A stretch of DNA of 64,000 nucleotides from an uncultured Pseudovibrio sp. (lineage in GTDB: Bacteria > Pseudomonadota > Alphaproteobacteria > Rhizobiales > Stappiaceae), in contig CANLTN010000013.1 in assembly GCA_947494035.1 (NCBI GenBank), positions 24,423 through 88,422 on the forward strand, in the 5' to 3' direction. The position numbers and the translations under genes were made by a program. Of this stretch, positions 18,026 through 40,157 are shown in pieces. The notes under the pieces were generated by a model. The model had not been told where the DNA came from and did no database searches. It was given only the letters and a program-made list of their open reading frames with translations. Every line of letters begins with the position of its first letter. Positions within the stretch are counted from its first letter, which is position 1.

Positions 18026-18121
18026 TTCCGTCCCTCCCAATTTTCCTCCACGTCAAGTGTGCGCGGAAACTGCGAGGAGCGCTACCGAAAATTTAAAGGG
18101 GATGGAGAAAAACCGGTTTGA

Positions 18122-18733: not shown

Positions 18734-18757
18734 AAAACACTTTCAGAACACATCAAT

Positions 18758-19399: not shown

Positions 19400-19419
19400 A
19401 ACGCAATTCTCTCAGAATT

Positions 19420-24291: not shown

Positions 24292-24954
24292 TCAGGTGCA
24301 GGCAAGTGCGGCAGCAAACTCTGCCATGCGCCCTGCATCGAGGCGACCATCAACCCGAACACCACTGCAAACATCGACACCGTAAGGCTTTACTGTCTCA
24401 ATGGCCTCGATGATGTTCTTGGGTGTCAGGCCACCTGCCAGAAATACCGGAATATCAAGTTTCTCAACAAAATGGCGGCTCAAGTCCCAGTCGTGGGCTC
24501 GGCCTGTTCCGCCAAGTACGTCATTCGCAGGGGAACCGGAATCGAGCAGGATCGCATCTGCGACACGGCTGTATTCCTGAGCGATTTCAAAGGAATAGTC
24601 GTCCTCGACATGAACGACCTGTACAATGCGCGTACAGGCCGGCAAGTCCAGACGCAGTTCTGCATATTCGCTTAGGTCAATCGGACTAACGATCTGAACC
24701 GTGTTGGTTCCACATGTCAGAACATGTTCGACAATATCTTTTGCAGATGTGCGTGAGGTCAGAAGCCAGGTCGCAACGGGAGGTGGCACCTGCCGTGCGA
24801 TATGATGAATGAGGTCATCTTCAATCACACCGGGGCCGGAAGGCATGTGGGCAACAAGGCCGATAGCATCGGCACCGCAAGCAACAGCGGTGGCTGCTTC
24901 GTCCGCTGTTGAGATACAACACACTTTCATACGGGTACGAGCTTTGATCGACAT
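24292..24954 (-). CDS. Phosphoribosylanthranilate isomerase-like (TrpF fold), outside a trp operon
   Basis: KVCCI, LLDSG, GGTG..HDW, FLAGGL, GVDVCSGV. Confidence 0.75.
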   Translation of the reverse strand: MSIKARTRMKVCCISTADEAATAVACGADAIGLVAHMPSGPGVIEDDLIHHIARQVPPPVATWLLTSRTSAKDIVEHVLTCGTNTVQIVSPIDLSEYAELRLDLPACTRIVQVVHVEDDYSFEIAQEYSRVADAILLDSGSPANDVLGGTGRAHDWDLSRHFVEKLDIPVFLAGGLTPKNIIEAIETVKPYGVDVCSGVRVDGRLDAGRMAEFAAALACT

Positions 24955-25130: not shown

Positions 25131-25760
25131 TTATTTTGTACCGTACATCCGGTCACCGGCATCACCCAGACCCGGGATGATGTAGCCCTTCTCGTTGAGC
25201 TTTTGATCGATAGCGGCGGTGTAGATCGGCACATCAGGGTGTGCTTCGTTGAAGCGAGCAACGCCTTCAGGAGCTGCCAGCAAGCATACGAACACCATGT
25301 TCTTCGCGCCGCGCTTTTTCAGGCGCTCAACAGCAGAAATCGCGGAGTTTGCAGTTGCCAGCATTGGGTCAACAACAATCACCAGACGCTCTTCCAGCTC
25401 CTGAGGGGCCTTGAAATAGTATTCAACGGCTTCCAGAGTTTTTGGGTCGCGGTACAGACCAATGTGCGCAACGCGAGCAGACGGGATCAGCTCTAGCATG
25501 CCTTCGAGCAGGCCATTACCGGCGCGCAGGATGGAAGCAAAGCAGAGCTTTTTACCAGCCAAAACAGGTGCTTCCATCTCAGCAACCGGAGTGTCGATGG
25601 TCTGGGTGGTCATCTTCAGGTCGCGTGTTACTTCGTAGCACAGCAACAAAGAGATCTCGCGCAGCAAACGGCGGAAGTCCTGCGTCGGAGTTGATTTTCT
25701 CCGCATGTGGGTCAGCTTGTGCTGGACTAGCGGGTGTGCGATTACAGTTGCGCCGGACAT
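25131..25760 (-). CDS. upp: Uracil phosphoribosyltransferase
   Basis: [38 protein letters not shown]. Confidence 0.97.
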
Positions 25761-25888
25761 CGTGTTCCTCTTTTTCAACCCCGTCGGGTTTTGTATGTGC
25801 AGCCGCCTTTTGTCAGCATGTACATGGCAGTGCGTGTATTAAATTAGGCACCTGATTTTCTCGGGTGCAATTGATTGCAGGTTCCGGA

Positions 25889-27124
25889 TCAGAAAACCGT
25901 CCCATCACTGATGACCATCAGGGGTGGAGATCCATCACCTCGTTTCTCCAGGGCAATCTGTCGTCCCGCAGCCCAAGTTCCGCCTTCCAGCACACATGCC
26001 AATGGCAGCTGATCCCGCGATACGGACAAATCCGCCCGAATCCAGTCTGCAAGCTTATCGAGGAGAGCAATTGTGAGCGCTCTCCATTCAACAATCAGCT
26101 CGCTACTTACTTCATGTCTGTTCAGTGATTGTATCGGATCTTTCAGGCGGAGCACGCCTGTGTCCATGAACAATCCACCATTGCGATATTCCGCAAGGCC
26201 AGTCAGACCATCAATGTTTGCCATCTCAATACCAGCCCACGAGAGAGGTTCAACTAAAGAATAAGCAATCCATTGAGAAAGTTTGTGAAGAGGCACCAAA
26301 TTGTCGGTTTTATCCTGAGCTGTAACTTTGGAATGACGCCATGTGTCGCCAAGGATCACCCCATCAATCTGCTCACGATTGGGCCAGACCGGCCCTAAGC
26401 CATCCAGAACCACTTCCAGAATGCGCTCTGCATCGAGCGGACCTTTCTGGCCTTCCTCATAAAGAACATCAAAAAGCCCGCCCGGACGTGGCTCTTCTTC
26501 TTTGCCGAACAGGTCCGGACGCAGGGATACAGCCTCACCCAGACGGTTCAGCAATGTGAGGCGGCCATCCAAGCCGATGAGCTGGTTCGTGTCGGTTACC
26601 TGCAGGCCTTCGATAAGTTCATCCTTGTCCAGCCGGAACAAGGTTATGGCATCTGCCCGAAGCGGGTCTAACGGTTCATCGGAGAAGAAGCCTGCGGAGA
26701 ACATGGCGAGGGAGCCAACTGCCAGACCTTCCGAGCATGTGAAGGTCTCGCCGGTGATAGCCTCATGATACTTCCATTTGTCGCCAGCGGCAGCGTCGAG
26801 CAATGCGGAGACGATTGCTAAATCAAACGCAGTCCGGCCCATACCCCGCACATCGGAGAAGCGACGCGCTCCAGCCAGCATGGCCCAACGGTCAACGCCG
26901 CCGGTCTCGAAATGACGCCAGCGGGCATGAAACGGGATCTGCCTGTCGGGATAGGTGTTATCAGTCGCTGCGAGTGTTCTGCGAGCAGCTTCTGCCAGGT
27001 GCGATAGATCGACGGCAAAGTGCTCAAGTTCGCCCTGTAGCCCCAGCTCCAACAGCATATGTGAGCGTTCGCGTACCGCTCTTGCATTGAGCAAGGACAA
27101 AGCTTGCGATGCCTGCATCTCCAT
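25889..27124 (-). CDS. URC4/urg3 family protein (DUF1688)
   Basis: IPFHARWRHF, HKLSQWIAYSL, GLAEYRNGGL, VEWRALT, LEGGTWAAGR, C-terminal SDGTVF. Confidence 0.88.
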   Translation of the reverse strand: MEMQASQALSLLNARAVRERSHMLLELGLQGELEHFAVDLSHLAEAARRTLAATDNTYPDRQIPFHARWRHFETGGVDRWAMLAGARRFSDVRGMGRTAFDLAIVSALLDAAAGDKWKYHEAITGETFTCSEGLAVGSLAMFSAGFFSDEPLDPLRADAITLFRLDKDELIEGLQVTDTNQLIGLDGRLTLLNRLGEAVSLRPDLFGKEEEPRPGGLFDVLYEEGQKGPLDAERILEVVLDGLGPVWPNREQIDGVILGDTWRHSKVTAQDKTDNLVPLHKLSQWIAYSLVEPLSWAGIEMANIDGLTGLAEYRNGGLFMDTGVLRLKDPIQSLNRHEVSSELIVEWRALTIALLDKLADWIRADLSVSRDQLPLACVLEGGTWAAGRQIALEKRGDGSPPLMVISDGTVF

Positions 27125-27310: not shown

Positions 27311-27340
27311 AGCCCGCGCCTTTTTATGGAGGCACGGGCT
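27311..27340 (-). terminator. Hairpin/terminator after add
   Basis: AGCCCGUGCC/GGCGCGGGCU pairs fully only on the minus strand (G.U); tail UUUAGUGU. Confidence 0.55.
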
Positions 27341-27431: not shown

Positions 27432-28433
27432 TCATGCGTCGGCTGTGAGAGTTTCTAACCGCTTGAGAAGAATGCTACGGGTTTCCTCATCAACGAAGGC
27501 TGCTTCCAGTGCATTCTTGGTGATGGACTTCTGGACGTCGTAAGTCCAACCAAACACACGAGAAGTTTCAACGTACTCATGACCAAGTGTGGTGCGGAAG
27601 AATGGCGGATCATCGGAGTTCAGGGTGATGCGAACGCCAGCCTGACGGAGCAGGTTCACCGGATGGAAGCGCAGGTTTGAGTAGACGCCGAGCGCAATGT
27701 TGGAATGTGGGCACACTTCGAGAGTGATTTCCTCATCCACCAGCCGCTGGACCAGTGCTTCATCTTCAACGGCGCGGACACCATGACCAATACGTGTGAT
27801 CTTCAGGTAGTCGAGTGCATCACGCACACTTTCAGCGCCGCCGAACTCACCGGCATGTGCTGTCAGGCCGAGACCTGCTTCACCCGCCATGGCGAACGCT
27901 TTAACGAAGTCCTTTGCCGGACCGATACGCTCGTCACCTGCCAGACCGAAACCAGTGACCAGTGGGTGCGGGTTGTCGATCACGGCCTTGACCGCAGCTT
28001 CAACGGATTCAGCGCCTTCGTGACGGACACCGAGCGGCACCAGGCGACCTTCGATACCAGTGTCTGCCTTTGCACGCTCCAGACCAGCCACAATACCTTC
28101 CAGATAGGATTTGTAGCTCAGGCCTGCTTTGACGGCGTGGTCAGGGGAGATGAAAACTTCCGCGTAGATCACACCTTCAGCTGCGAGCATCTTGTAGTAG
28201 GTTTCCGCCAGCTCAGCGTAATCGCCTGGGCGACGGAATAAGGATGCAGCTTCATCATACTGTTGAATGAAGGTTGTAAAATCATGCCAGCTGTAGGCTC
28301 CGTTGGCGTCAAACAGATCACCAAGGTCTACATCATAGCGTTGAGCCAGCTTTCTTACGAGCGTTGGGGGTGCTGCGCCTTCGATATGGCAGTGCAATTC
28401 AGCACGCGGCACCACATTTTGCATTGGTCTCAT
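27432..28433 (-). CDS. add: Adenosine/adenine deaminase (ADA family)
   Basis: AELHCHIEG, FGLAGDE, TAHAGE, RIGHGVR, LEVCPHSN, LNSDDP. Confidence 0.9.
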   Translation of the reverse strand: MRPMQNVVPRAELHCHIEGAAPPTLVRKLAQRYDVDLGDLFDANGAYSWHDFTTFIQQYDEAASLFRRPGDYAELAETYYKMLAAEGVIYAEVFISPDHAVKAGLSYKSYLEGIVAGLERAKADTGIEGRLVPLGVRHEGAESVEAAVKAVIDNPHPLVTGFGLAGDERIGPAKDFVKAFAMAGEAGLGLTAHAGEFGGAESVRDALDYLKITRIGHGVRAVEDEALVQRLVDEEITLEVCPHSNIALGVYSNLRFHPVNLLRQAGVRITLNSDDPPFFRTTLGHEYVETSRVFGWTYDVQKSITKNALEAAFVDEETRSILLKRLETLTADA

Positions 28434-28436: not shown

Positions 28437-29312
28437 TTAAAATCCGTGCATTGGCTTGTCTTTAGCCCGAACAATCCAGTTGTCATCCGACCATTTCGCC
28501 GTACCGTCTACCATATGCAAGGCATAAGCGTGACGGGATTTATCGGACCGGTTGGGTGCAGATTTGTGTGGCACCAGACCGTGGAGGATAACAAGGGTCC
28601 CTTTGGGGGCGACAAGTGGAGCTGCATCATCTGCAGATTTCTCGAGTGGGGTTTCGTCCAGAGACTCCATCACCAAGCCTTCACCGTTGTAATGAAAGCG
28701 TTTGCGCAGTGGTCCTTTGTGACCACCCGGCACGCCATACAGCCCGCCATTGGTTTCATCCGCATCTTCCAGAGCGAACCAGAAACCGGTGCAGGTCAAC
28801 GGTGTTGTGTGAAGGAATGTGGAGTCCTGATGATTGTTTACTTCACCGCCAATGTGAGGCGGTTTGAAGATGTACATGGACTGGGCAAGCAGAGGCTCTG
28901 CCAGCCCAATATCTTTTGCAACACGCTGCATTTTCGCAGAGCGTGAAAACTGCTCAAACACCGGGTCATAGTCATGCAGAGCATGGCCAACTTTGTTGAG
29001 TGCCTGATGTTTGTCCTTGGTCAGAGCACCGTTGTCATCAAATGCCTCAGCCTCGAAGAAGAAACGGATCTTATCGCCGCTTTCGCGGAAATAGGCATCC
29101 TTCGCATGGGCCTGCGCATTTGTTTCAAACACTGACGCGACGGTTGACGGGTCGAACTCGTCAATCAGCCGGGTCATCCGTGCTTTGAGTTGGTCGCATT
29201 CTTCCGGAGAAGCAAATCCTTCAAGGATCAGGAAGCCATCTTCTTCAAACGCCTGCTTCATCTCAGGCGTTAAACTTCCATCTTGTTGTGCAGTAAACTT
29301 ACGTGCCTGCAT
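28437..29312 (-). CDS. PhyH family Fe(II)/2-oxoglutarate dioxygenase, PHYHD1-like
   Basis: IRFFFE, NKVGHALH, QSMYIFKPPHIGGEV, HQD...H triad (HQD 163-165; VPHKS), RHAYALH. Confidence 0.85.
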   Translation of the reverse strand: MQARKFTAQQDGSLTPEMKQAFEEDGFLILEGFASPEECDQLKARMTRLIDEFDPSTVASVFETNAQAHAKDAYFRESGDKIRFFFEAEAFDDNGALTKDKHQALNKVGHALHDYDPVFEQFSRSAKMQRVAKDIGLAEPLLAQSMYIFKPPHIGGEVNNHQDSTFLHTTPLTCTGFWFALEDADETNGGLYGVPGGHKGPLRKRFHYNGEGLVMESLDETPLEKSADDAAPLVAPKGTLVILHGLVPHKSAPNRSDKSRHAYALHMVDGTAKWSDDNWIVRAKDKPMHGF

Positions 29313-29408
29313 GTTGCATTCCCCTCTTATGTAACACGACGGATGCCTCTCCTTGCACCCCTTAACGATTGCAATTTCTAAGCAATTCGGAAATATATCG
29401 CGCTACAC

Positions 29409-29448
29409 TAAACTGGGCAAACACCGTTTGCCCAGTTTATTTTTTTTT
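29409..29448. terminator. Strong hairpin after deoB
   Basis: Perfect 14-bp inverted repeat TAAACTGGGCAAAC/GTTTGCCCAGTTTA; T9 on the plus side. Confidence 0.7.
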
Positions 29449-29464: not shown

Positions 29465-30685
29465 TTAAAGAAAGCTATTTCCGTTCTCGCCCGCTGCAAT
29501 GCCAAGGTGCTTGGCTACGGTTTCACCGATATCAGCAAAAGTCGGGCGTTTTCCGATGTTGGACCCCTGCTCGCCTTTTACCAATGCCAGAACAGGCACG
29601 TGCTCACGGGTGTGGTCTGTGCCTTTCCAGGTTGGGTCACAACCGTGGTCAGCAGTCAGAATGAGCAGATCGCCATCGTTCATCTTTTCGATCATCTCTG
29701 GCAAACGCTTGTCAAAGTGCTCCAGAGCTGCAGCATAGCCCGGTACGTCACGGCGGTGACCGTAAAGCATATCGAAGTCGACGAAGTTGGAAAATACGAG
29801 GTCTCCGTCTTTCGCCAGATCCATTGCTTCCAGAGTCCGGTCAAAGAGCTGATCGTTGCCAGCACCCTTCAGCAGTTTGGTAATACCCTGTGCTGCGTAA
29901 ATGTCCGAGATCTTGCCGACTGCAATCACCTGACGGCCAGCATCTTCCAGACGGTCCAGAACAGTTGGAGCCGGAGGAAGAACAGAGTAGTCACGACGGT
30001 TTGGTGTCCGCTCGAAGCCAGCTTCAACTGAGCCAACAAACGGACGGGCAATCACACGACCGATGTTGTATTCGTCAACCAGCTTGCGGCACTTCACACA
30101 AAGATCGAGCAGACGCTCAAGGCCGAACGTCTCTTCGTGAGCAGCGATCTGAAGAACACTATCTGCGGAGGTGTAGAGGATCGGCTTGCCGGTTTTGACA
30201 TGCTCTTCACCGAATTCCTCGATGACAACCGTCCCGGACCCATGTGTCAGGCACAGAACGCCCGGCAGTTCGCCAACTTCGATGATTTTTTCGATCAGTT
30301 CCGCAGGGAAGGATGGGTTTTCATTCGGGAAGTAGCCCCAGTCAAATGTGACTGGCACGCCAGCGATTTCCCAATGGCCCGATGGTGTGTCTTTGCCGTT
30401 GGAGACTTCAGCAGCGAAGCCCCAATTGGCTTCCGGAGTGCCCGAAAAATCCAGACCTTTGATAGCTTTGCCAGTGGATGCACGAGCGGCAGCGCCCAGT
30501 CCAAGACGATCCATGTTTGGCACGGAAAGAAGACCGCTACGCAGACCTTCTTTATCGCCTTTGCCTTCTGCACATGCATCAGCAATGTGACCGAGGGTGT
30601 CGGAGCCGACATCGCCAAACTTGTCAGCGTCGTCGGCAGCGCCGATACCGAAGCTGTCGAGTACACACATAATTGCGCGTGGCAT
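29465..30685 (-). CDS. deoB: Phosphopentomutase
   Basis: [58 protein letters not shown]. Confidence 0.96.
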
Positions 30686-30783: not shown

Positions 30784-32100
30784 TTAAGGCGCAATACGGT
30801 CACGAACTGTGGCGAACTCTTTGACGTCCGCTGCAGAACCGAAGGAGTATGCGTCACGCAGAACTTTTTCTGCGCGCTCAACCTGATCTTCGGTGTGTGC
30901 GTGGATCACAGCGATTGGAGTTTCGCTGTCGACAGTTGTGCCAACACCAGCGATATCTGTCAGACCAACAGCAGGATCAATTTCATCCGCTGCGGCACGA
31001 CGACCACCACCAAGTTCAACAACTGCAAGACCAACGGCGCGTGCATTCACACCAGTGACCAGAGATGCTTCCGGAACATGAACCGCGCGCTGGATCGGAG
31101 CCTTGGCAAGGTATGCTTCCGGCTTTTCCATGAAGTCGTTTGGACCGCCGAGTTCACCGACCATTTTGCCGAAGATTTCAGCTGCCTTACCGGAGGTGAA
31201 GGCTTCTTCCATCTTCTTCTTACCGTCATCAACGGAGTCAGCAAGACCAGATGTAGCAAGACCTTCTGCACCGATTGCAACGGTCACATCCCACAGACGG
31301 TTGTCAACGTGAGTGCCTTTGAGGAAGTCAACAGCGTTCTGAACTTCGATCGCGTTACCAGCAGCAGATGCCAGAGACTCGTTCATGTCGGTCAGCAACG
31401 CAGTGGTTTTGAGACCCGCACCGTTTGCAACAAGCACGAGGCTTTCTGCCAAAGCTTTCGCATCTTCATAGTTTGCCATGAATGCGCCGGTGCCCCACTT
31501 AACGTCGAGAACCAAAGTTTCAAGGCCAGCAGCGAGCTTCTTGGACAGGATGGATGCAGTAATGAGATCAATGCTCTCAACAGTCGCGGTCACATCACGG
31601 ATACCGTAGAAGCGCTTGTCAGCAGGTGCCAGGTCACCGGTCTGGCCGATGATTGCACAGCCAACGTCACGAACAACCTTGCGGAACAGTTCGTTGGATG
31701 GTTTTGCGGTGTAGCCTGGAATGGTTTCCAGTTTGTCCAGCGTACCGCCGGTGTGACCGAGGCCACGACCAGAGATCATTGGAACAGCAGCACCGTTTGC
31801 AGCCAAAGCAGGAGCGAGCATCAGAGAAACGTTGTCGCCAACACCACCGGTGGAGTGCTTGTCAACGATTGGCGCGTCGATGTCGGACCAGTCGAGAACG
31901 TCGCCACTGTCGCGCATGCCAAGTGTCAGAGCAACACGCTCGTTCACAGTGAGACCATTAAAAAACACAGCCATTGCCAGAGCAGCAATTTGCCCCTCGG
32001 TTACGCTATTGTCGGTGATGCCCTTTACGAAGAACTGGATTTCTTCTTTGCTAAGGACTTCGCCTTGACGTTTCTTACGAACGATTTCTTGAGGAAGCAT
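30784..32100 (-). CDS. deoA: Thymidine/pyrimidine-nucleoside phosphorylase
   Basis: [46 protein letters not shown]; start MLPQE at 32100. Confidence 0.96.
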
Positions 32101-32101
32101 A

Positions 32102-32881
32102 TCAGTAGGTCTCTTTAGTGGTGGTGTCACGGTCTTCGATGCCTGCAAGCACTGCATCAAGCAGGCCACTTGCGCCAAAACGGAACGTTGCTGCAGATAC
32201 CCAGTTGCTGCCCATCAGTTCGTCAGCCAGTTTGAGGTATTCAGCTGCGTCTTCTACGCTGCGCACACCACCAGCTGGCTTGAAGCCAACAGTGCGATGA
32301 TCTTCCTTGGAAGTTTCACGCAGAACATTGAGCATGATTTCGGCTGATTCCAGAGTTGCGTTGACCTTCACCTTACCTGTCGAGGTTTTGATGAAGTCTG
32401 CGCCCTGCGCAATTGCAACTTCAGATGCGACGTGGATCAGACGAGGATCCTTCAGCTCACCAGTTTCAAGGATAACCTTAAGCAATGCTGGAGCAGGAAT
32501 TGCTTTACGCACCTGTTTGATCTGATCTTCAGCGAAACCACGACGGCCTTCAGCGAATGCGCGATATGGCATGACGAGGTCAATTTCGTCCGCGCCGTCT
32601 GCGAGAGCCTGCTTGGTTTCTTCGATCACTGCAGCTGTGTCTTCACCGCCAGCAGGGAAGTTCACAACAGTCGCGATGCGGACCGGTGAGTTCTTCAGCA
32701 GTTCAGCAGCCTGCTTTACAAAGCGAGGCCAGATGCAGATAGCTGCAGTGTAACCATAAGGTGTAGTGGAGCGCTCAATAAGTGCTGCTACATCTTCTGC
32801 AGTACAATCATCATTCAGGTTGGTTAGATCGATTAGTCCTAGAGCACGCTTTGCTGTTTCTTTTATCGATGCTTCGGTCAT
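32102..32881 (-). CDS. deoC: Deoxyribose-phosphate aldolase
   Basis: [51 protein letters not shown]. Confidence 0.96.
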
Positions 32882-32895
32882 TTTGCCAGTTTCCT

Positions 32896-33702
32896 TCAAG
32901 CCATGTTTTTGAGGAAGGCACGCAAAATCTTTTTGATCTTGGCCGCTCCAAGCGGGGCCATTTCCTTAGTTTCATCATGAGAGAGGCCGTGGGCTTGTAG
33001 GCCAGCTCCCATATTGGTGATGGTGGAGATTGCTGCGACGCGCATGCCAAGGAAGCGAGACATGATCACTTCCGGAACGGTGGACATGCCAACGGCATCA
33101 GCACCGAGCACCTGAGACATGCGAATTTCTGCCGGGGTCTCGAAAGACGGTCCGGAGAACCACATGTAGACGCCCTCTTCGAGATCTTCACCAACTTGAG
33201 CAGCTGCTTTTTTGAGCTGCTCACGAAGCTCTGGATCATATGCGGCGGAAAGATCGAGGAAACGGCTCTCGTCTTCTTCGCCGATGAGTGGGTTCAGACC
33301 AGACCAGTTGATGTGGTCGTTGATCAGCATTGGAGAACCCGGTTTGATATTTTCACGCAGGGAGCCTGCAGCATTGGTTGCAACGATTGTTTCACAACCA
33401 AGTGCCTGAAGTGTTTCAAGCGGAGTGCGCATCACGGATGGATTGCCGCTCTCATAGTAGTGTGCACGGCCGGACAGAATAACAACCGGAACACCTTCCA
33501 AAGTGCCTGCAACAAGCTCGCTTGCGTGCGCAGTAACGGATGAGACTGGGAAACCTGTGAGGCGGTTATATGGCACGCGAACCGCGTCTTCGACTTCTTC
33601 AGCAAGAGAACCCAGACCAGAACCGAGGATCATTCCAACTTTATAATCACCTGGGCGAGCAGCGCGTACAATATCCGCTGACTCTTTACCAAATCCGCTC
33701 AT
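32896..33702 (-). CDS. punA: Purine-nucleoside phosphorylase (trimeric PNP/XapA type)
   Basis: ILGSGLG, GRAHYYE, TNAAGS, GPSFETPAE, DAVGMSTVPE, ITNMGAG. Confidence 0.92.
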   Translation of the reverse strand: MSGFGKESADIVRAARPGDYKVGMILGSGLGSLAEEVEDAVRVPYNRLTGFPVSSVTAHASELVAGTLEGVPVVILSGRAHYYESGNPSVMRTPLETLQALGCETIVATNAAGSLRENIKPGSPMLINDHINWSGLNPLIGEEDESRFLDLSAAYDPELREQLKKAAAQVGEDLEEGVYMWFSGPSFETPAEIRMSQVLGADAVGMSTVPEVIMSRFLGMRVAAISTITNMGAGLQAHGLSHDETKEMAPLGAAKIKKILRAFLKNMA

Positions 33703-33704
33703 AA

Positions 33705-34109
33705 TCAATCCTCAATCTGTTCATTCAATTCAAAGCCAGCAGGCAGCAGTTCTTCCATGGTGAAGGTTCTGCGCAGACCTTCCAAATTGGCAACATGGAT
33801 CTTGATCTGCCGATTGCTTGCAAATTCTGAAAGTTTTTGACGGCAACCACCACATGGTGTGCACAGCGCGGCGTCCGCGATCACTACAACCTCGTCAATC
33901 TTGGTGGAGCCAGCACGGACCATTGCCGCGATTGCTCCGCCTTCAGCACAGGTGCCTTCCGGGAAAGCGCCGTTTTCGACGTTGCACCCGGAGACTAATT
34001 TGCCATCAGTGGTGAGCAATGCAGCGCCCACCTTGAAGTTGGAGTATGGCGCGTAGGCGGTTTCTCGGGCCGCCTTCGCTTCTTCAAAAAGCTTATCAAA
34101 CGCACTCAT
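33705..34109 (-). CDS. cdd: Cytidine deaminase
   Basis: AYAPYSNFKVGAA, GCNVEN, CAE, PCGGCRQ. Confidence 0.95.
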   Translation of the reverse strand: MSAFDKLFEEAKAARETAYAPYSNFKVGAALLTTDGKLVSGCNVENGAFPEGTCAEGGAIAAMVRAGSTKIDEVVVIADAALCTPCGGCRQKLSEFASNRQIKIHVANLEGLRRTFTMEELLPAGFELNEQIED

Positions 34110-34120: not shown

Positions 34121-35089
34121 TTATGTACGCTCTTTAACGTATGGGATACCAGATGCTTTCGGTGGGATTGCGCGACCGATAAAGCCTGCAAGAAGAACCA
34201 CAGTCAGCACGTAAGGCAGAGCCTGGAAGACCTGAACAGGAACCTCACCAATTCCAGGAATTTCCTGACCCTGAAGACGAATTGCCAATGCATCCAGGAA
34301 TCCGAAGAGAAGGCATGTGAACATGGCGTTCACTGGCTTCCACTTTGCAAAGATTAGAGCTGCCAGAGCAATAAAGCCCTTACCCGCGCTCATATCCTTG
34401 ATAAAACCAGCGCCCTGCGCAACAGACAGGTAAGCACCGGAGAATCCGCAGAGAATACCACAGATGATCGTTGCCCTGTAACGTAGCAGTGTTACTGACA
34501 GACCGGCTGTATCAGCTGCAGAAGGGTTCTCGCCAACAGCACGCAGACGCAGACCAAAGCGGGTTCTGAACACAATCCACCAGACCAGCGGCACGGCAGC
34601 GAAAGATGCATATACCAGGATGTTGTGACCGGAGATCAGGTTTGCGTAGATTGGGCCGAACACCGGGAAGTCCGCCAAAGCATCAGCAAATGGAAGCTCA
34701 ATGTTGTTGAACCGGCTTGCACTATCCAATGCAGGCGTACGACCACCTTGTGAGAACCACGCCTGACCAAGCAATACTGTCAAACCAGCTGCAAGGAAGT
34801 TGATCGCAACACCGGAAACCACCTGGTTGCCGCGCTGGGTAATAGATGCGTAACCGTGTATCAATGCCAACAGGACAGAAACGAAGATACCAGCCAGCAA
34901 ACCGATCCATGGGCTCTGGAATACGTAGGCGGCGGCGGCGGCAGCAAATGCCGAGCCGAGGATCTTCCCTTCCAGACCGATATCTACGATACCGGAGCGC
35001 TCTGAGAATAGGCCTGCAAGGCACGCAAACAGAAGAGGAGTTGACAGCCGGAACGTACTGTCGAGAACAAGAATAATTGTGTCTAACAT
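34121..35089 (-). CDS. Nucleoside ABC transporter permease (NupC-like)
   Basis: SERSGIVDIGLEG, FGLRLRAVGENP, AGKGFIALAALIF. Confidence 0.9.
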   Translation of the reverse strand: MLDTIILVLDSTFRLSTPLLFACLAGLFSERSGIVDIGLEGKILGSAFAAAAAAYVFQSPWIGLLAGIFVSVLLALIHGYASITQRGNQVVSGVAINFLAAGLTVLLGQAWFSQGGRTPALDSASRFNNIELPFADALADFPVFGPIYANLISGHNILVYASFAAVPLVWWIVFRTRFGLRLRAVGENPSAADTAGLSVTLLRYRATIICGILCGFSGAYLSVAQGAGFIKDMSAGKGFIALAALIFAKWKPVNAMFTCLLFGFLDALAIRLQGQEIPGIGEVPVQVFQALPYVLTVVLLAGFIGRAIPPKASGIPYVKERT

Positions 35090-35099: not shown

Positions 35100-36203
35100 T
35101 TAAGCTTCTGCTGTGTCTGAAGAGAAGCGATCGAAGAACGCTACGACTGCTGGTCGGAACATATGCTCCAGAGCACCAGCGAAGAGAATGACCAGTGCCT
35201 GAATGACTACGATCATATCGCGAGAGATTGTCGGGATTTCGAAGGCCAGTTCTGCCCCGCCCTGATAAAGCAAACCGAAGAGCATGGCTGCGAGAATAAT
35301 TCCGATCGGGTGCCCTCGTCCCATCAGCGCTACCGCAATACCTACGAAGCCAGCACCACCTGCAAAGTCGAGCAGCAGACGGGTTTGCTCACCCATCACA
35401 ACGTTGATGCCCATGAGGCCTGCAAGCGCACCGGAGATCAACATGGTGATAATCGTGATGCGTACCGGAGAAATACCGGCATAGGCTGCTGCGTCCGGGT
35501 TCTTACCAAAGCTGCGGATTTCATAGCCGAGTTTGGTGTGCCAGATGAGAAGCCAAACCACCACACAAACTGCAAGAGCGAGGAAGAACGCCAGGTTCAC
35601 CGGAGACTGACCGAAGTCGAAGCTGGTGAAGACGTTTCTGAGAAGCGGAAGCTGACCGCCTGCCTCGAAGTTGCGAGAGGATGGAGACATGGTCCCCTGA
35701 GGGATCAGGATGTTTGACAACAGGTACACCATCAACGCAGATGCGATGAAGTTGAACATGATTGTCGTGATCACGATGTGAGATCCGCGCTTCGCTTGCA
35801 AGTAAGCCGGGATGAACGCCCAAGCTGCCCCGAAGAGCGCGCCGCCTGCAATGGCAAACGGGAATGTGACCCACCATGGAATGAAGCGGTCGAGCGCAAG
35901 ACAAGCCAGCGCGATACCCAGACCGCCTACGTAGGCCTGACCTTCTCCACCAATGTTAAACAGACCGGCATGGAAGGCGACTGCCACGGCCAAACCGGTA
36001 AAGATAAAGTTGGTTGCGTAGTAGAGGGTATAGCCAATGCCCTCACCATAACCCAAGGCGCCCCAAACGAGCCATTTAACAGCTTCGAATGGATCTTCGC
36101 CGATGATTACAACTACCAAGCCAGAAACGATGAATGCCGCGATCAGGTTGAGGGCCGGTAGCAGACCGAAATCAACCCAACGAGGAAGTTGCCCCTTACT
36201 CAT
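35100..36203 (-). CDS. Nucleoside ABC transporter permease (NupB-like)
   Basis: AGLFNIGGEGQ, HIVITTIMFN, GYEIRSFGKNP, GFVGIAVALMGR. Confidence 0.9.
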   Translation of the reverse strand: MSKGQLPRWVDFGLLPALNLIAAFIVSGLVVVIIGEDPFEAVKWLVWGALGYGEGIGYTLYYATNFIFTGLAVAVAFHAGLFNIGGEGQAYVGGLGIALACLALDRFIPWWVTFPFAIAGGALFGAAWAFIPAYLQAKRGSHIVITTIMFNFIASALMVYLLSNILIPQGTMSPSSRNFEAGGQLPLLRNVFTSFDFGQSPVNLAFFLALAVCVVVWLLIWHTKLGYEIRSFGKNPDAAAYAGISPVRITIITMLISGALAGLMGINVVMGEQTRLLLDFAGGAGFVGIAVALMGRGHPIGIILAAMLFGLLYQGGAELAFEIPTISRDMIVVIQALVILFAGALEHMFRPAVVAFFDRFSSDTAEA

Positions 36204-36264: not shown

Positions 36265-37875
36265 TCATTCTGCTGCCTCTTGATTGACACCAGCCATGAG
36301 AAGGCCAAGATCCTGCTCTGTTGCTTCTGGCCCACGCTCACCGACCACGTTGCCATCAAACATGACAATGATGCGGTCTGAGAGAGAGCGAATTTCGTCT
36401 AGTTCCACGGATACGAGAAGGACTGCTTTGCCCTGCGCCCGCATATCCATGATCCGGTTGTGGATGTACTCAATCGCACCGATGTCCACGCCGCGGGTTG
36501 GCTGACCGATCAGAAGAACGTCCGGGTCACACTCAATCTCACGTGCCAGAACGATTTTCTGCTGGTTGCCGCCAGAGAACTTCGCAGCTGTCATTTCGGT
36601 GGTTGGTGGGCGAATGTCGTATTTCTCGATACGTTCTTTGGCTTCCTTGCGGATTGCGTCCCTATCGAGGAACATGCCCTTGGAGTATTTCGGTTCGCGG
36701 TGGTAGCCCAGAATGGAGTTTTCATACTCTGAGAACTGGTTGACCAAGCCCATGCGATGGCGATCTTCCGGAACGTGGCTCATGCCTTTGTGACGCATTT
36801 CTGCGGCATTATGAACGCCTGCAAGATCCAGCTTCTCACCTGACAACTCCATCGTGCCACTTTCAGCACGTGTGATACCGGAGAGAGCGGCAAGCAGCTC
36901 GGATTGACCGTTACCGGAAACGCCCGCGATGCCAAGAACTTCGCCCGCACGCACTTCGAAGGACACATCCTTCACACGCAGCACGCCGCGGTCATCACGT
37001 ACGTTGAGGCCTTCTACTTTGAGAAGAGGCTTGCCAACTTCCACTTCAGGCTTGTCCACCTCAAGAAGAACACTGCGGCCAACCATAAGTTCGGCCAGTT
37101 CTTCCATGGAGGTTTCAGCCGTTTTGCGTGATGCAACCATTTCACCACGACGCATCACGGACACCGTATCGGTCACATCCATAATCTCACGCAGTTTGTG
37201 GGTGATCAGCAGAACCGTCTTGCCCTGATCGCGTAGAACGCGAAGAATACGGAAGAGATGATCAGCTTCGGACGGTGTCAAAACACCTGTCGGCTCATCA
37301 AGAATAAGAATGTCTGCGCCGCGGTACAGAGCCTTTAGGATCTCTACACGCTGCTGCAAACCCACTGGCAATTCACCCACGGCTGCGTCCGGGTCAATTG
37401 TCATGTCATATTCATCTGCCAAACGCTGAAGTTCACGTCGCGCGTTCGCAACACCGTCTTTCAACAGTGCGCCGCCCTCTGCGCCAAGAATGACGTTTTC
37501 TAGAACTGTGAATGGATCGACGAGCATGAAATGCTGGTGCACCATACCGATGCCCTGCGAAATCGCGCTCTTCGAATCAGGAATAGTGGTTGCCTTACCA
37601 TCGATCTTAATTGTTCCACTATCGGCGTTGTAAAAGCCGTAGAGGATCGACATCAAGGTGGACTTCCCCGCTCCGTTCTCACCAATGATCCCGTGAATGG
37701 ATCCCTTTCCAACAACAAGGTTGATGTCCTTGTTGGCATGAACTGGCCCGAAACTCTTATTTACGCCAATTAACTCGATGGCAGGTACATTGCTTTCAGC
37801 CACTGTTGCCCGGCCTTTCTGGTCTATCAAATCAATAACTTGCACGTCGATCTCATTCTTGCTTTCGAAGTACAC
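36265..37875 (-). CDS. Nucleoside ABC transporter ATP-binding protein (two ABC domains)
   Basis: GENGAGKSTL, LILDEPT, FSGGNQQK, QPTRGVD; true start may be the GTG at 37803. Confidence 0.93.
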   Translation of the reverse strand: MYFESKNEIDVQVIDLIDQKGRATVAESNVPAIELIGVNKSFGPVHANKDINLVVGKGSIHGIIGENGAGKSTLMSILYGFYNADSGTIKIDGKATTIPDSKSAISQGIGMVHQHFMLVDPFTVLENVILGAEGGALLKDGVANARRELQRLADEYDMTIDPDAAVGELPVGLQQRVEILKALYRGADILILDEPTGVLTPSEADHLFRILRVLRDQGKTVLLITHKLREIMDVTDTVSVMRRGEMVASRKTAETSMEELAELMVGRSVLLEVDKPEVEVGKPLLKVEGLNVRDDRGVLRVKDVSFEVRAGEVLGIAGVSGNGQSELLAALSGITRAESGTMELSGEKLDLAGVHNAAEMRHKGMSHVPEDRHRMGLVNQFSEYENSILGYHREPKYSKGMFLDRDAIRKEAKERIEKYDIRPPTTEMTAAKFSGGNQQKIVLAREIECDPDVLLIGQPTRGVDIGAIEYIHNRIMDMRAQGKAVLLVSVELDEIRSLSDRIIVMFDGNVVGERGPEATEQDLGLLMAGVNQEAAE

Positions 37876-38106: not shown

Positions 38107-39105
38107 TTAGAACGGGCAGGAAGAATCCACCATGTAATCGTGAACTTCTACTTTGCCAGAAATAATATCCATTTTTGCCTGCTCAACTGCAGACTTCATT
38201 TCTTCAGTGATGAGAGGCGCGTTATACTGATCGTACGCCCAGGAAACACCGTCTTCAGCAAGACCAAGAACTTGAACACCAGAAGTCCAGTTGCCTTCCT
38301 GTGCGTCTACAAGCGTTTTATCGACAGCAACATCAACACCTTTGATCATTGAGGTGAGAACAGAGCCCGGATGCAGGTAGTTCTGGTTGGAATCAACGCC
38401 GATACCGAACTTGCCTTCATCAGCAGCTGCCTGCAGAACGCCGGTACCTGTGAGGCCAGCTGCGTGGAACACAACGTCTGCGCCACGTGCGAACTGTGAG
38501 CGCGCAAGCTCACCGCCCTTGAGTGGGTCAGTCCATGCAGCGCCGGTGGTTCCGGTCATGTTTTCAATGATTTCAATGTCAGGATTGACGTATTTCGCGC
38601 CCTGCTTGTAACCACATGCAAACTTACGGATCAGCGGAATGTCCATGCCGCCAACAAAACCGATGGTGTCAGTTTCGGTCGCTTGTGCAGCAAGAAGACC
38701 AACGAGGAACGAGCCTTCGCCTTCCTTGAAGACGATAGAACGTACGTTTGGCAGGTCTACAACAGCATCAACGATTGCAAAGTTAGTCTCAGGGAATTCC
38801 TTTGCAACTTTTTCCAGAGCTGCTGCCTGAGCGAAACCAATCGTGATGATTGGGTCAAGTCCACGGCGGGCGAAGTTACGCAGGGCCTGTTCGCGCTGAG
38901 ATGGATTCTGGATCTCGAAATCGCGGAAATTGACGCCTGTGCGCTCCTTAAACTTCAATGCGCCTTTGTATGCAGCTTCATTGAAAGACCGGTCATTCCG
39001 ACCACCGAAGTCATAAACGACTGCGGGCTTGAAGGCTTCTGCCATAGCACCAGTTGTCATTACTGCTGTCAGAGCAATCGCACCGAGGATTGTTGTGGTT
39101 TTCAC
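38107..39105 (-). CDS. BMP family nucleoside-binding ABC protein
   Basis: Signal peptide; DRSFNEAAY, GFVGGMDIPLI, GADVVFHAAG, IGVDSNQ. Confidence 0.92.
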   Translation of the reverse strand: MKTTTILGAIALTAVMTTGAMAEAFKPAVVYDFGGRNDRSFNEAAYKGALKFKERTGVNFRDFEIQNPSQREQALRNFARRGLDPIITIGFAQAAALEKVAKEFPETNFAIVDAVVDLPNVRSIVFKEGEGSFLVGLLAAQATETDTIGFVGGMDIPLIRKFACGYKQGAKYVNPDIEIIENMTGTTGAAWTDPLKGGELARSQFARGADVVFHAAGLTGTGVLQAAADEGKFGIGVDSNQNYLHPGSVLTSMIKGVDVAVDKTLVDAQEGNWTSGVQVLGLAEDGVSWAYDQYNAPLITEEMKSAVEQAKMDIISGKVEVHDYMVDSSCPF

Positions 39106-39176: not shown

Positions 39177-40157
39177 TTATTTTATTGTTTCCAGTTCATT
39201 CTCTTTTAGTAGGCCAACGAGTTCCTTGGCCAAAACCTCATCAATGATCAAATCCTTAATGATGCCAGTCGCCAATGCCGCCAGCGTTGCTTTCGCTTTG
39301 CGGTAACCGCCAACGATCGCGACGACATGCGCCTTGCGGACATCATCAAAATGCAGTCCGACTGCTTTTTCAGTCAAAGAACAGGCTACTTCCTTGCCGT
39401 TGATGTCGACAAAGCGGCCCATCACGTCAGAACACGCGCCGCTTGCAAGCAGCTCTTCGCGTTCTTCCGGGGTAATCAGCTTGCGTTTGACAAGGTGACC
39501 TTCCTTCTCGACCGATCCGATACCGATTATGAACAACTCGGCGGCCTTTGCTCTGGAGAGCAGCTCCTGAACTGCGCCCTGAGACAGGAAGGTTTCTCTT
39601 TCTGCTTTGGTTTCAGCAATATATGGAACAGGGAGGTAGAACCCCTCGCCGCCTGTCTTTGCACAAAGCTGCTGCACAACATCATAGGGGTTGGCAGAGA
39701 GGCGGCGGGTGAGCGAGCCGGATACGGACAGCAGCTCAAGCTCTGGAACGTGGACACGAGGCATCGCCTCGATTGTGGACTGAAGCGTGCGACCCATGCC
39801 AACGCCGATGCGTTTAGGCGGGTTTGTTGTGAAAAGTGAATGAAGATATTGGCTAGCGAAGGATGACACCGCAGTAAATGAGTCTGTTTCTTCACCGCTG
39901 CCAAGGTCCGGAGCAATAAAGCAATTTTCCAAATTCATTCGTTTGCAGAGAAATTGTTCTAATTCAACGCACTCGGAAGGTCGGGCTTCGATATGAAATT
40001 TTATCAAGCCTTCTTTTTGAGCATGTGCTATTAGGCGATGAACCTTTGCAGGAGAAACCCCAAGACGACCCGCAATCTCCCCTTGCGTGCTTCGGCCGAT
40101 GAAAGACATCCAAGCGGCTCTAATGGCCAAGGATGTGGTCCATTCGTCTGCCTTCAT
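39177..40157 (-). CDS. SorC/DeoR family sugar-binding transcription regulator
   Basis: AIRAAWM..TQGEIAGRLGVS HTH; IGVGMGRT, IIGIGS, GGYRKAKA, IIDE. Confidence 0.9.
   Translation of the reverse strand: MKADEWTTSLAIRAAWMSFIGRSTQGEIAGRLGVSPAKVHRLIAHAQKEGLIKFHIEARPSECVELEQFLCKRMNLENCFIAPDLGSGEETDSFTAVSSFASQYLHSLFTTNPPKRIGVGMGRTLQSTIEAMPRVHVPELELLSVSGSLTRRLSANPYDVVQQLCAKTGGEGFYLPVPYIAETKAERETFLSQGAVQELLSRAKAAELFIIGIGSVEKEGHLVKRKLITPEEREELLASGACSDVMGRFVDINGKEVACSLTEKAVGLHFDDVRKAHVVAIVGGYRKAKATLAALATGIIKDLIIDEVLAKELVGLLKENELETIK

What the first reader, a model, noticed from the sequence alone, without database searches (positions are those of the whole stretch)
28437..29312. PHYHD1-type dioxygenase inside a complete nucleoside uptake/catabolism cluster: candidate modified-nucleoside salvage system
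Seen: the gene lies between deoB and add, with only 3 bp to add. Motifs IRFFFE, NKVGHALH, QSMYIFK.P..GGEV..HQD and H.S..N.SD.SR.AY match, from memory, eukaryotic PHYHD1 rather than generic PhyH. The cluster also has a BMP-type importer, two phosphorylases, two deaminases, deoB/deoC and upp. Known: 2'-O-methyl nucleosides from rRNA/tRNA turnover resist phosphorylases. As I recall (please verify), PHYHD1-type enzymes were recently shown to demethylate 2'-O-methylated nucleosides. Inference: a full import, demethylate, deaminate, phosphorolyse pathway for scavenging modified nucleosides, which I do not know to have been described as an operon-level system.
Basis: partly seen in the sequence, partly recalled or inferred. 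Interest (0 to 1): 0.75.

Follow-up and report, generated by a model that had tools for sequence, protein, structure and literature searches.

The report
Nucleoside demethylase gene in salvage cluster
A marine Pseudovibrio bacterium carries a true counterpart of human PHYHD1, an enzyme recently shown to strip the 2'-O-methyl group from free RNA-derived nucleosides, inside its nucleoside uptake and breakdown gene cluster, which suggests the cluster can also recycle these otherwise resistant modified nucleosides.

Summary
A 291-aa gene lies at 28437-29312 on the minus strand, between deoB and add, 3 bp from add. It sits in a same-strand cluster: SorC-type regulator, Bmp/PnrA ABC importer, cdd, punA, deoC, deoA, deoB, add, then DUF1688 and upp.

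The protein is a PHYHD1 orthologue, not a generic PhyH. It matches human PHYHD1 at E 6e-66 against 4e-10 for human PHYH. It is 40-46% identical to all seven tested active eukaryotic and viral enzymes. The iron triad and predicted ribose-contact residues are invariant, and the predicted fold best matches 2OPW/3OBZ (TM 0.85-0.87).

A December 2025 NAR paper shows that PHYHD1 enzymes demethylate free 2'-O-methyl nucleosides. That paper has no gene-context analysis and tested no bacterial member of this clade.

Of 70 homologue loci with adequate flanks, 51 have nucleoside genes nearby, in five different arrangements across Alphaproteobacteria, Woeseiaceae and Acidimicrobiia. Background in the own genome is about 4.5%. 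Linkage is not universal: 7 of 9 hits in an even draw stand alone. In Stappiaceae the gene is accessory in one fixed slot.

Activity and co-transcription are untested, and terminator-like hairpins flank the PHYHD1-add pair. Verdict: new variant of a known kind, moderate interest.

The parts
39177..40157 (-). SorC-family transcriptional regulator (HTH plus sugar-binding domain), the same family as B. subtilis DeoR; candidate regulator of the cluster
   Evidence: Pfam PF04198 at 9e-58 plus HTH_24; first gene of the same-strand series
38107..39105 (-). Bmp/PnrA-like nucleoside-binding lipoprotein of the ABC importer
   Evidence: Pfam PF02608 at 2e-65
36265..37875 (-). ABC transporter ATPase (two ABC domains)
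   Evidence: Pfam PF00005, two stretches, 1e-50
35100..36203 (-). ABC permease 1
   Evidence: Pfam PF02653 at 3e-35
34121..35089 (-). ABC permease 2
   Evidence: Pfam PF02653 at 1e-37
33705..34109 (-). cdd, cytidine deaminase
   Evidence: TIGR01354 at 139 bits, above the 113.65 cut-off
32896..33708 (-). punA, purine nucleoside phosphorylase
   Evidence: NF006054 at 340.6 bits (cut-off 218) and TIGR01698 at 323.8 bits (cut-off 302.6); overlaps cdd by 4 bp
32102..32899 (-). deoC, deoxyribose-phosphate aldolase
   Evidence: TIGR00126 at 215.8 bits (cut-off 117.3)
30784..32178 (-). deoA, thymidine phosphorylase. The real start is probably Met27 at 32100, one base after the deoC stop.
   Evidence: TIGR02643 at 667.7 bits (cut-off 570.7), aligned from residue 27; translation
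29465..30685 (-). deoB, phosphopentomutase
   Evidence: NF003766 at 548 bits (cut-off 256)
29409..29439 (-). 14-bp-stem hairpin in the deoB-PHYHD1 spacer, preceded by A9 and followed by UUUAGUGU. Terminator-like or attenuator-like. A weak sigma70-like site (29420-29392) overlaps its 3' arm.
   Evidence: spacer folding z = -7.2; conserved with compensatory changes in core Pseudovibrio species; the same hairpin-plus-TTTAGTGT signature occurs at 7 of 51 genome-wide TTTAGTGT sites against 1-3% for control 8-mers
28437..29312 (-). PHYHD1 orthologue: Fe(II)/2-oxoglutarate dioxygenase and predicted 2'-O-methyl nucleoside demethylase. Fe ligands are H161, D163 and H249; predicted ribose contacts are K107, H110, Q144 and W279; the base-stacking residue is F166.
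27432..28433 (-). add, adenosine deaminase; starts 3 bp after the PHYHD1 stop (probable translational coupling)
   Evidence: NF006848 at 436 bits (cut-off 426) and TIGR01430 at 332 bits (cut-off 216.55); sequence
27311..27340 (-). Hairpin after add, followed by the same TTTAGTGT tail; probable terminator of the PHYHD1-add unit
25889..27124 (-). DUF1688 (URC4-like) gene; context, conserved after add in Pseudovibrio, Roseibium and Breoghania
   Evidence: Pfam PF07958 at 7e-140
25131..25778 (-). upp, uracil phosphoribosyltransferase (base salvage end of the cluster)
   Evidence: NF001097 at 290.6 bits (cut-off 114)

Best explanation
The gene encodes a cytoplasmic Fe(II)/2-oxoglutarate dioxygenase orthologous to eukaryotic PHYHD1. 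Its most likely reaction is hydroxylation of the methyl carbon of a free 2'-O-methyl nucleoside (Am, Gm, Cm, Um, Im). The resulting hemiacetal collapses to the plain ribonucleoside plus formaldehyde, while 2OG and O2 give succinate and CO2. The product is then an ordinary substrate for the neighbouring enzymes: add (translationally coupled, Am to A to I) and cdd deaminate, punA and deoA phosphorolyse, deoB converts ribose-1-P to ribose-5-P, and upp salvages uracil. In effect the gene is an accessory 'adapter' that widens the substrate range of a conventional Bmp-ABC/deo nucleoside cluster to ribose-methylated nucleosides from RNA turnover. Shown here: orthology, active-site conservation, fold, and recurrent gene linkage. 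Shown in the literature for relatives: the chemistry. Inferred: activity of this particular protein, import of the methylated nucleosides by the Bmp transporter, order of steps, and regulation.
For: (1) Orthology. Human PHYHD1 matches at E 6e-66 end to end. The protein is 40-46% identical over its full length to all seven tested ACTIVE PHYHD1-clade enzymes (human, zebrafish, fly, fungus, Arabidopsis, tobacco, Fadolivirus), but only 22-26% identical to the FJS clade and to inactive human PHYH. In the ML tree it falls in one clade with the active eukaryotic enzymes (92/87, long stem). (2) Active site. The Fe triad and the four docking-predicted ribose ligands (PMC12709175) are invariant in the window protein and in 69/69 bacterial homologues; the stacking residue is F or Y. 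(3) Fold. The AlphaFold model has pLDDT 90; the top PDB matches are 2OPW/3OBZ at TM 0.85-0.87 and E 7e-31, and the next hit is at 5e-14. (4) Chemistry of the family. PMC12709175 shows demethylation of free 2'-O-methyl nucleosides only, and states that the E. coli strain used cannot metabolise Cm, so a canonical deo/cdd set is not enough. (5) Linkage. 51 of 70 informative loci have nucleoside genes nearby, against a background of about 4.5%. There are five architectures using two unrelated transporter types (Bmp-ABC and NupC/CNT), and some include a nucleoside hydrolase, AMP nucleosidase or a PsuG-like gene. PHYHD1-add adjacency recurs in Actinomycetota, where add is only about 29% identical to the window's add. 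(6) Accessory behaviour. 44 of 81 Stappiaceae genomes have the gene. In 12 of 12 genomes lacking it, add directly follows deoB, and one keeps a 47-aa remnant in that slot. (7) In other genera the deoB-PHYHD1 gap is only 18-50 bp.
Against: No bacterial member of the PHYHD1 clade proper has been assayed; the bacterial enzymes tested in the paper belong to the distant FJS clade. In an even draw of 401 Pseudomonadota genomes, 7 of the 9 hits outside the family are stand-alone genes in unrelated contexts, and Geminicoccaceae copies sit among housekeeping genes, so linkage is lineage-specific. In Pseudovibrio a strong hairpin with a terminator-like tail lies between deoB and PHYHD1, so co-transcription with the upstream genes is doubtful here. 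The segment equivalent to the human alpha4 'lid' is four residues shorter and modelled with low confidence. Nothing shows that the Bmp system binds methylated nucleosides.
Confidence: 0.72

Rival explanations
1. The chemistry is the same but the role is different. The enzyme mainly clears 2'-O-methyl nucleosides released by the cell's own rRNA and tRNA turnover (housekeeping or detoxification, as proposed for animal PHYHD1), and does not serve an import-and-scavenge pathway. Clustering with add and deo genes would then only reflect a shared cytoplasmic nucleoside pool.
For: Many homologues are stand-alone genes with no transporter nearby. The zebrafish knockout accumulates endogenous free Nm nucleosides (abstract). 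In Pseudovibrio the PHYHD1-add pair is bracketed by terminator-like hairpins and may be transcribed apart from the importer genes.
Against: In four of the five architectures the gene lies within or directly beside importer genes (Bmp-ABC or NupC). The gene is dispensable and patchy within a single family (44/81), which suits a niche-dependent scavenging trait better than universal housekeeping.
Confidence: 0.2
2. The enzyme oxidises a different nucleoside position or a different modified nucleoside. Candidates are 2'-hydroxylation of deoxynucleosides (as in the fungal pyrimidine deoxynucleoside 2'-hydroxylase), or demethylation of base-methylated or base-methoxylated nucleosides.
For: The clusters contain deoC and deoA (deoxynucleoside genes). 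The paper did not report tests with 2'-deoxynucleosides. The purine-contact residue S154 of the human enzyme varies in bacteria (N159 here).
Against: All predicted ribose-contact and iron-binding residues are invariant with enzymes shown to act on the 2'-O-methyl group irrespective of the base. All seven tested members of this clade have the demethylase activity.
Confidence: 0.06
3. It is a generic PhyH-family hydroxylase of a non-nucleoside substrate (as the public name 'phytanoyl-CoA dioxygenase/hydroxylase' implies), and its position in the cluster is accidental.
For: The public annotation. Pfam only resolves it to PhyH, and no NCBIfam model reaches its cut-off.
Against: Similarity to human PHYH is 22% identity at E 4e-10, against 6e-66 for PHYHD1. 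Human PHYHD1 and FJS essentially do not act on phytanoyl-CoA, and human PHYH lacks the demethylase activity. Linkage to nucleoside genes recurs in five independent arrangements, and no rival conserved context was found.
Confidence: 0.02

Closest known systems
Eukaryotic PHYHD1 (human isoform A, PDB 2OPW/3OBZ; zebrafish, mouse, fly, fungal, plant PHYH-like and Fadolivirus enzymes), the 2'-O-methyl nucleoside demethylases of PMC12709175
   Same: Same length and 40-46% identity end to end. Same HxD...H triad and predicted ribose-binding K/H/Q/W residues, same fold (TM 0.85-0.87) and same clade in the tree.
   Different: Bacterial, and embedded in a nucleoside uptake and catabolism cluster with translational coupling to add. 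There is a four-residue deletion in the segment equivalent to the alpha4 lid. Activity has not been tested for any bacterial member of this clade.
FJS and its bacterial relatives (Acidisoma, Sphingomonas colocasiae, Poribacteria) from the same paper
   Same: Bacterial 2OG dioxygenases of Pfam PhyH with demonstrated activity on 2'-O-methyl nucleosides.
   Different: Only 22-26% identical, partly alignable, and a separate distant clade with a WHQDSGY-type motif. No gene context was reported, because the clone was a 1.2-kb metagenomic insert.
Classical nucleoside catabolic operons and importers: E. coli deoCABD, B. subtilis dra-nupC-pdp with SorC-type DeoR, and Bmp/PnrA-type nucleoside ABC importers (own knowledge of these systems)
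   Same: The same enzyme set (deoA, deoB, deoC, PNP, cdd, add), a Bmp/PnrA binding protein and a SorC-family regulator.
   Different: Those operons contain no oxygenase. Here a demethylase occupies a fixed slot between deoB and add, and the slot is empty in PHYHD1-minus relatives.
RK9NH / LbNH / AgNH nucleoside hydrolases acting on 2'-O-methyl nucleosides; RK9NH lies next to a DERA-like aldolase (cited in PMC12709175)
   Same: A proposed bacterial gene-cluster route for catabolism of 2'-O-methyl nucleosides.
   Different: That route cleaves the glycosidic bond and leaves 2-O-methylribose. The route proposed here removes the methyl group first and then uses the standard phosphorolytic pathway.
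Human PHYH (phytanoyl-CoA 2-hydroxylase, PDB 2A1X)
   Same: Same Pfam family and the DSBH fold.
   Different: 22% identity at E 4e-10, a far branch in the tree, and inactive on Nm nucleosides. The public name of the window protein derives from this enzyme and is misleading.

Membership tests
PHYHD1-type 2'-O-methyl nucleoside demethylases | Full-length sequence similarity to PHYHD1 far stronger than to PHYH or other PhyH-family enzymes | tested here: met
   Human PHYHD1 at E 6e-66, residues 14-287 against 4-285; next PDB hit at 1e-12; PHYH at 4e-10. Identity to seven active members is 40-46%.
PHYHD1-type 2'-O-methyl nucleoside demethylases | Placement inside the clade that holds the experimentally active PHYHD1 enzymes | tested here: met
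   ML tree: bacterial PHYHD1-likes plus eukaryotic PHYHD1 form one clade (92/87, stem 2.13), with the FJS clade and human PHYH outside.
PHYHD1-type 2'-O-methyl nucleoside demethylases | Fe(II) facial triad HxD...H and the 2OG-binding arginine | tested here: met
   H161, D163 and H249 are invariant in 69/69 homologues. R260 in the SRHAY motif is invariant in alignment A1.
PHYHD1-type 2'-O-methyl nucleoside demethylases | Ribose-contact residues predicted by docking (human K102, H105, Q139, W277) and the stacking aromatic (F161) | tested here: met
   K107, H110, Q144 and W279 are invariant; F166 (F in 53, Y in 16) (residues). These residues come from docking, not from a substrate complex.
PHYHD1-type 2'-O-methyl nucleoside demethylases | DSBH fold closest to the PHYHD1 crystal structure | tested here: met
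   Model pLDDT 90 and pTM 0.90; 2OPW/3OBZ at TM 0.85-0.87 and E 7e-31; next hit at 5e-14.
PHYHD1-type 2'-O-methyl nucleoside demethylases | Extra alpha-helix (human Q56-L71) at the cavity opening | tested here: inconclusive
   The equivalent segment is four residues shorter. In the model residues 63-68 have pLDDT below 50, followed by helix 72-80.
PHYHD1-type 2'-O-methyl nucleoside demethylases | 2OG-dependent conversion of free 2'-O-methyl nucleosides to nucleoside plus formaldehyde | not testable with these tools
   Needs an enzyme assay. No bacterial member of this clade was assayed in PMC12709175.
FJS-type bacterial demethylases | Close sequence relationship to FJS (the WHQDSGY-type clade) | tested here: not met
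   26% identity over 143 residues only, E 1e-6; a separate clade.
Phytanoyl-CoA 2-hydroxylase (PHYH), the public annotation | Orthology to PHYH | tested here: not met
   22% identity at E 1e-8 (blastp) and 4e-10; terminal branch of 6.6 substitutions per site in the tree.
deo/nup-type nucleoside uptake and catabolism operon | Presence of deoA, deoB, deoC, PNP, cdd and add at equivalog level, plus a nucleoside importer and a regulator | tested here: met
   All are above curated cut-offs. Bmp/PnrA, ABC components and a SorC-type regulator are present.
deo/nup-type nucleoside uptake and catabolism operon | Co-transcription or co-regulation of PHYHD1 with the other genes | not testable with these tools
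Indirect evidence: a 3-bp gap to add; 18-50 bp gaps to deoB in other genera; but a terminator-like hairpin after deoB in Pseudovibrio.

The most novel reading that the evidence does not exclude
The cluster is a complete route of import, demethylation, deamination and phosphorolysis. It would let certain marine and sludge heterotrophs (sponge-associated Pseudovibrio, other Stappiaceae, Woeseiaceae, Microthrix and Acidimicrobiia) grow on 2'-O-methyl nucleosides shed from eukaryotic and other RNA. PHYHD1-add would act as a self-contained, gain-and-loss 'adapter cassette', and eukaryotic PHYHD1 would descend from such a bacterial salvage gene.
Probability: 0.35. Interest if true: 0.65.

Novelty: new variant of a known kind. 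Interest (0 to 1): 0.55.

Why it matters
2'-O-methylation is among the most abundant RNA modifications, and the fate of the released nucleosides was unknown until the PHYHD1 activity was reported in late 2025. That work gave no physiological context in bacteria and tested no bacterial member of the PHYHD1 clade proper.

Four things follow from the analysis here:
- Bacterial PHYHD1 orthologues are repeatedly wired into nucleoside uptake and catabolism clusters. This is independent genomic support for the proposed substrate class.
- It suggests a concrete bacterial salvage pathway that can be tested.
- It provides a ready natural experiment: sister Pseudovibrio and Stappiaceae strains with the deoB|add slot either filled or empty.
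- It shows that hundreds of database entries named 'phytanoyl-CoA dioxygenase/hydroxylase' are probably misnamed.

The result is useful rather than startling, because it is what the published biochemistry would lead one to expect.

Tried and rejected
- Possible Rosetta-stone fusions: long in-frame ORFs extend the PHYHD1 match in Geminicoccaceae, Dongiaceae and Myxococcales loci. The extensions have no Pfam domain, or the long ORFs lie in other frames. These are GC-rich ORF artefacts, not fusions.
- Shared operator search among the cluster's intergenic regions: only two 10-mers (TGTTACATAA and AAACTGGGCA) are shared between the deoB-PHYHD1 spacer and the region upstream of the regulator. Each has a chance expectation of about 0.17, too weak to claim co-regulation.
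- A rival conserved context for stand-alone homologues: the neighbours (KAS III, LysR, CysS/pirin, Ccm ABC, BirA, LanM, FKBP, GroEL/RecA) have nothing in common.
- Foreign composition of the gene in the window: GC 0.516 and GC3 0.531 lie within the cluster's range, so there is no horizontal-transfer signal.
- Literature on the operon context or on follow-up work: nothing beyond the NAR paper.
- NCBIfam: no model reaches its cut-off for this protein, with only weak partial hits to ectoine hydroxylase and similar enzymes.
Full report
OBSERVATION. All four quoted motifs are in the translation. Pfam gives PhyH over the whole profile at E 2e-44.

Every gene from 40157 down to 25131 is on the minus strand. 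In order they are:
- a SorC-family regulator;
- a Bmp/PnrA-like binding protein, an ABC ATPase and two permeases;
- cdd, punA, deoC, deoA and deoB;
- the PhyH gene, then add;
- DUF1688 and upp.

Gaps inside the series are small or negative. The exceptions are 231 bp (bmp-ABC), 98 bp (deoA-deoB), 152 bp (deoB-PhyH), 307 bp (add-DUF1688) and 110 bp (DUF1688-upp). The PhyH stop and the add start are 3 bp apart.

WHAT THE PROTEIN IS. Against all PDB sequences the best match is human PHYHD1 (2OPW/3OBZ), at E 6e-66 and aligned end to end. The next hit is at 1e-12 and human PHYH at 4e-10.

Stonkus et al., NAR Dec 2025 (PMC12709175), show that a metagenomic dioxygenase, FJS, and PHYHD1-type enzymes from animals, a fungus, plants and a giant virus remove the 2'-O-methyl group of free nucleosides. 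The reaction depends on 2OG and Fe(II) and releases formaldehyde. There is no activity on NMPs, NTPs, 3'-O-methyl nucleosides or RNA, and human PHYH is inactive.

I took the tested sequences from the paper's Table S2 (machine-read, so slightly noisy). The window protein is 40-46% identical over its full length to all seven active PHYHD1-clade enzymes. It is only 22-26% identical to FJS, Acidisoma, Poribacteria and human PHYH.

A maximum-likelihood tree puts all bacterial PHYHD1-like proteins together with the eukaryotic PHYHD1 enzymes in one clade (92/87, long stem). The eukaryotic clade is nested among the bacterial ones, and FJS and PHYH lie far outside.

The iron ligands are human H156, D158 and H246. 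The residues the paper's docking places on the ribose are K102, H105, Q139 and W277. Here these are H161, D163, H249, K107, H110, Q144 and W279, and all are invariant in 69 of 69 bacterial homologues. The stacking F161 is F166 (F or Y in the others), while the purine-contact S154 is variable.

An AlphaFold model (pLDDT 90, pTM 0.90) has 2OPW/3OBZ as its best PDB matches, at TM 0.85-0.87 and E 7e-31. The next hit is at 5e-14. The one soft spot is the segment equivalent to the human alpha4 'lid'. It is four residues shorter and poorly modelled.

Public databases call this protein 'phytanoyl-CoA dioxygenase family protein' or 'phytanoyl-CoA hydroxylase'. It is the only PHYHD1-type gene among the four PhyH-family genes in the genome. 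The bacterial enzymes assayed in the paper all belong to the FJS clade, so no bacterial member of the PHYHD1 clade proper has been tested.

NEIGHBOURHOOD TEST. The window comes from a Pseudovibrio (98% protein identity to P. japonicus). I fetched 72 loci with relatives at 47-98% identity, plus nine from an even draw of 401 Pseudomonadota genomes. I then searched them with the window's cluster proteins and four extra nucleoside-gene queries.

Of 70 loci with at least 8 kb of flank, 51 carry nucleoside genes in the flank and 47 have one immediately adjacent. By the same criteria, only 4.5% of the window's own genome lies within 10 kb of such a gene.

The linkage occurs in five different gene orders:
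1. ...deoA-deoB-PHYHD1-add, in Stappiaceae, Curvivirga and another alphaproteobacterial family; Propylenella has it without add.
2. ...punA-deoA-PHYHD1-add, in a further alphaproteobacterial family.
3. PHYHD1-deoA-NupC/CNT transporter-IU nucleoside hydrolase, with deoB upstream, in Woeseiaceae (Gammaproteobacteria).
4. bmp-ABC-(cdd)-PHYHD1-add in Acidimicrobiia, followed in Microthrix by a HAD hydrolase and a PsuG-like pseudouridine-5'-phosphate glycosidase gene.
5. AMP nucleosidase-PHYHD1-bmp-ABC-cdd-punA-deoC in one MAG.

Two unrelated importer families are involved. The add next to PHYHD1 in Actinomycetota is only about 29% identical to the window's add. Both points argue for functional coupling rather than shared ancestry of a single block.

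The linkage is not universal. In the even draw, 11 of 401 genomes have the gene. Of the nine outside Stappiaceae, only two are in a nucleoside cluster. The other seven, and the Geminicoccaceae copies, are stand-alone genes in mutually unrelated surroundings. No alternative conserved partner emerged.

ACCESSORY BEHAVIOUR. Within Stappiaceae, 44 of 81 genomes have the gene, always in single copy. I examined twelve relatives that lack it, four of them Pseudovibrio. In all twelve the cluster is intact, and add follows deoB directly after 56-214 bp. One of them retains a 47-residue C-terminal remnant of PHYHD1 in that slot, at 53% identity and E 6e-10. The gene is therefore a dispensable insert in a fixed slot of a conserved cluster, and it has been lost at least once by decay.

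TRANSCRIPTION UNITS. In Roseibium, Curvivirga, Propylenella and several MAGs the deoB-PHYHD1 gap is 18-50 bp, typical of an operon. In core Pseudovibrio the gap is 139-250 bp. It contains a conserved hairpin with compensatory changes between species: in the window a 14-bp stem at 29409-29439, preceded by A9 and followed by UUUAGUGU.

A second hairpin with the same tail follows add, at 27311-27340. Genome-wide, 7 of 51 TTTAGTGT sites follow a hairpin of at least 8 bp. The figure is 1-3% for control 8-mers and 19% for T8, so these look like genuine intrinsic terminators.

A weak sigma70-like site at 29420-29392, whose -10 element is conserved among Pseudovibrio species, lies just after the first hairpin. 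In this organism PHYHD1-add may therefore be its own bicistronic unit, or be expressed by read-through.

MECHANISM. The most likely sequence is this. Free 2'-O-methyl nucleosides, either imported or released from the cell's own RNA, are hydroxylated on the methyl carbon by the Fe(II)/2OG enzyme and lose formaldehyde. The plain nucleoside is then deaminated (add, cdd), phosphorolysed (punA, deoA), and its ribose-1-phosphate is isomerised (deoB). Uracil is salvaged by upp.

The need for such a step is backed by the paper's statement that its E. coli strain, which has the classical deo and cdd enzymes (my own knowledge of E. coli), cannot use 2'-O-methylcytidine. The tight coupling to add in two phyla hints at a purine branch, Am to A to I or Am to Im to I; both FJS and human PHYHD1 accept Am and Im. 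The reaction needs O2.

The basis of each step differs:
- Shown here: orthology, active-site and fold conservation, recurrent linkage, and accessory behaviour.
- Shown in the literature for relatives: the chemistry.
- Inferred: this protein's activity, transporter specificity, order of steps, and regulation.

RIVALS.
- Same chemistry, but clearing of endogenous nucleosides rather than scavenging. This is plausible and not exclusive (0.2).
- A different nucleoside oxidation, such as deoxynucleoside 2'-hydroxylation. The paper did not test it, but invariant active-site residues and seven out of seven active clade members make it unlikely (0.06).
- A non-nucleoside PhyH function with accidental placement (0.02).

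COMPARISON AND NOVELTY. As an enzyme this is a new, untested bacterial member of the known PHYHD1 demethylase family. As a system it is a variant of the classical deo/nup nucleoside cluster that has acquired a demethylase adapter.

The NAR paper contains no neighbourhood analysis, and I found no other paper on the subject. Notes from other windows of this scan describe the same kind of linkage in other genomes. That agrees with my census but is not independent proof.

I rate the finding as a new variant of a known kind, with interest about 0.55. It gives solid, testable physiological context for a newly discovered activity, but it is the context a specialist would have predicted.

Noticed in passing
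window 25131-27124 (-); also L001-L014, L017, L020, L022: A DUF1688 (URC4-like) gene sits directly upstream of upp and downstream of add. The pair is conserved in Pseudovibrio, Roseibium and Breoghania, but DUF1688 is absent from the Stappia and Hongsoonwoonella clusters. Another first-stage note (e1-5245838) covers the same pair.
   Followed up: partly
window 24292-24954 (-): A PRAI (TrpF-like) gene downstream of upp scores far below every NCBIfam TrpF equivalog cut-off (best 124 bits against a cut-off of 215). It is conserved at this position in Pseudovibrio. The genome has a second PRAI-like hit on another contig, so this copy may be a paralogue with a non-tryptophan role.
   Followed up: no
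window 29409-29439 and 27311-27340; genome-wide: Hairpins followed by the tail TTTAGTGT recur in the genome: 7 of 51 TTTAGTGT sites follow a hairpin of at least 8 bp, against 1-3% for control 8-mers. This may be a lineage-typical terminator form with a short U tract.
   Followed up: partly
L002, L006, L009: deoB-PHYHD1 spacer (about 9750-10000): Some Pseudovibrio species carry an insertion of about 100 bp in the spacer that folds into two extra strong hairpins. The flanking spacer sequence is conserved, so this may be a small repeat or mobile element.
   Followed up: no
L082 2786-2926 (genome G028): A 47-residue remnant of the PHYHD1 C-terminus (residues 245-291, 53% identity) lies between deoB and add in a genome that otherwise lacks the gene. 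This is direct evidence of gene decay in that slot.
   Followed up: yes
tree: The eukaryotic and Fadolivirus PHYHD1 clade is nested within bacterial PHYHD1-like sequences. It is sister to the Woeseiaceae sequences, with weak support (83/83). This hints at a bacterial origin of eukaryotic PHYHD1.
   Followed up: no
L062, L064, L065 (Candidatus Microthrix / Acidimicrobiaceae), e.g. L064 11930-13603: After PHYHD1-add these clusters carry a HAD hydrolase and an Indigoidine_A/PsuG-like gene (pseudouridine-5'-phosphate glycosidase family). One locus therefore combines genes for the two most abundant RNA modifications.
   Followed up: partly
L015 8933-9940 (Stappia albiluteola); similarly placed gaps in L018 and L019: A proline-racemase-family gene (PF05544, E 1e-106) is inserted between deoB and PHYHD1 in the Stappia cluster.
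   Followed up: no
own genome, contig C18 about 15995-20042: There is a second Bmp-type binding protein, 69% identical to the window's, about 2.3 kb from an IU-type nucleoside hydrolase. The genome therefore has a second, hydrolase-based nucleoside uptake locus, as well as NupC, Amn and PsuG homologues elsewhere.
   Followed up: no
window 29326-29335 and about 40513-40522: The 10-mer TGTTACATAA occurs both just upstream of the PHYHD1 ribosome-binding site (conserved in Pseudovibrio spacers) and in the region upstream of the SorC regulator gene. Chance expectation is about 0.17, so this is at most a hint of a shared operator.
   Followed up: partly
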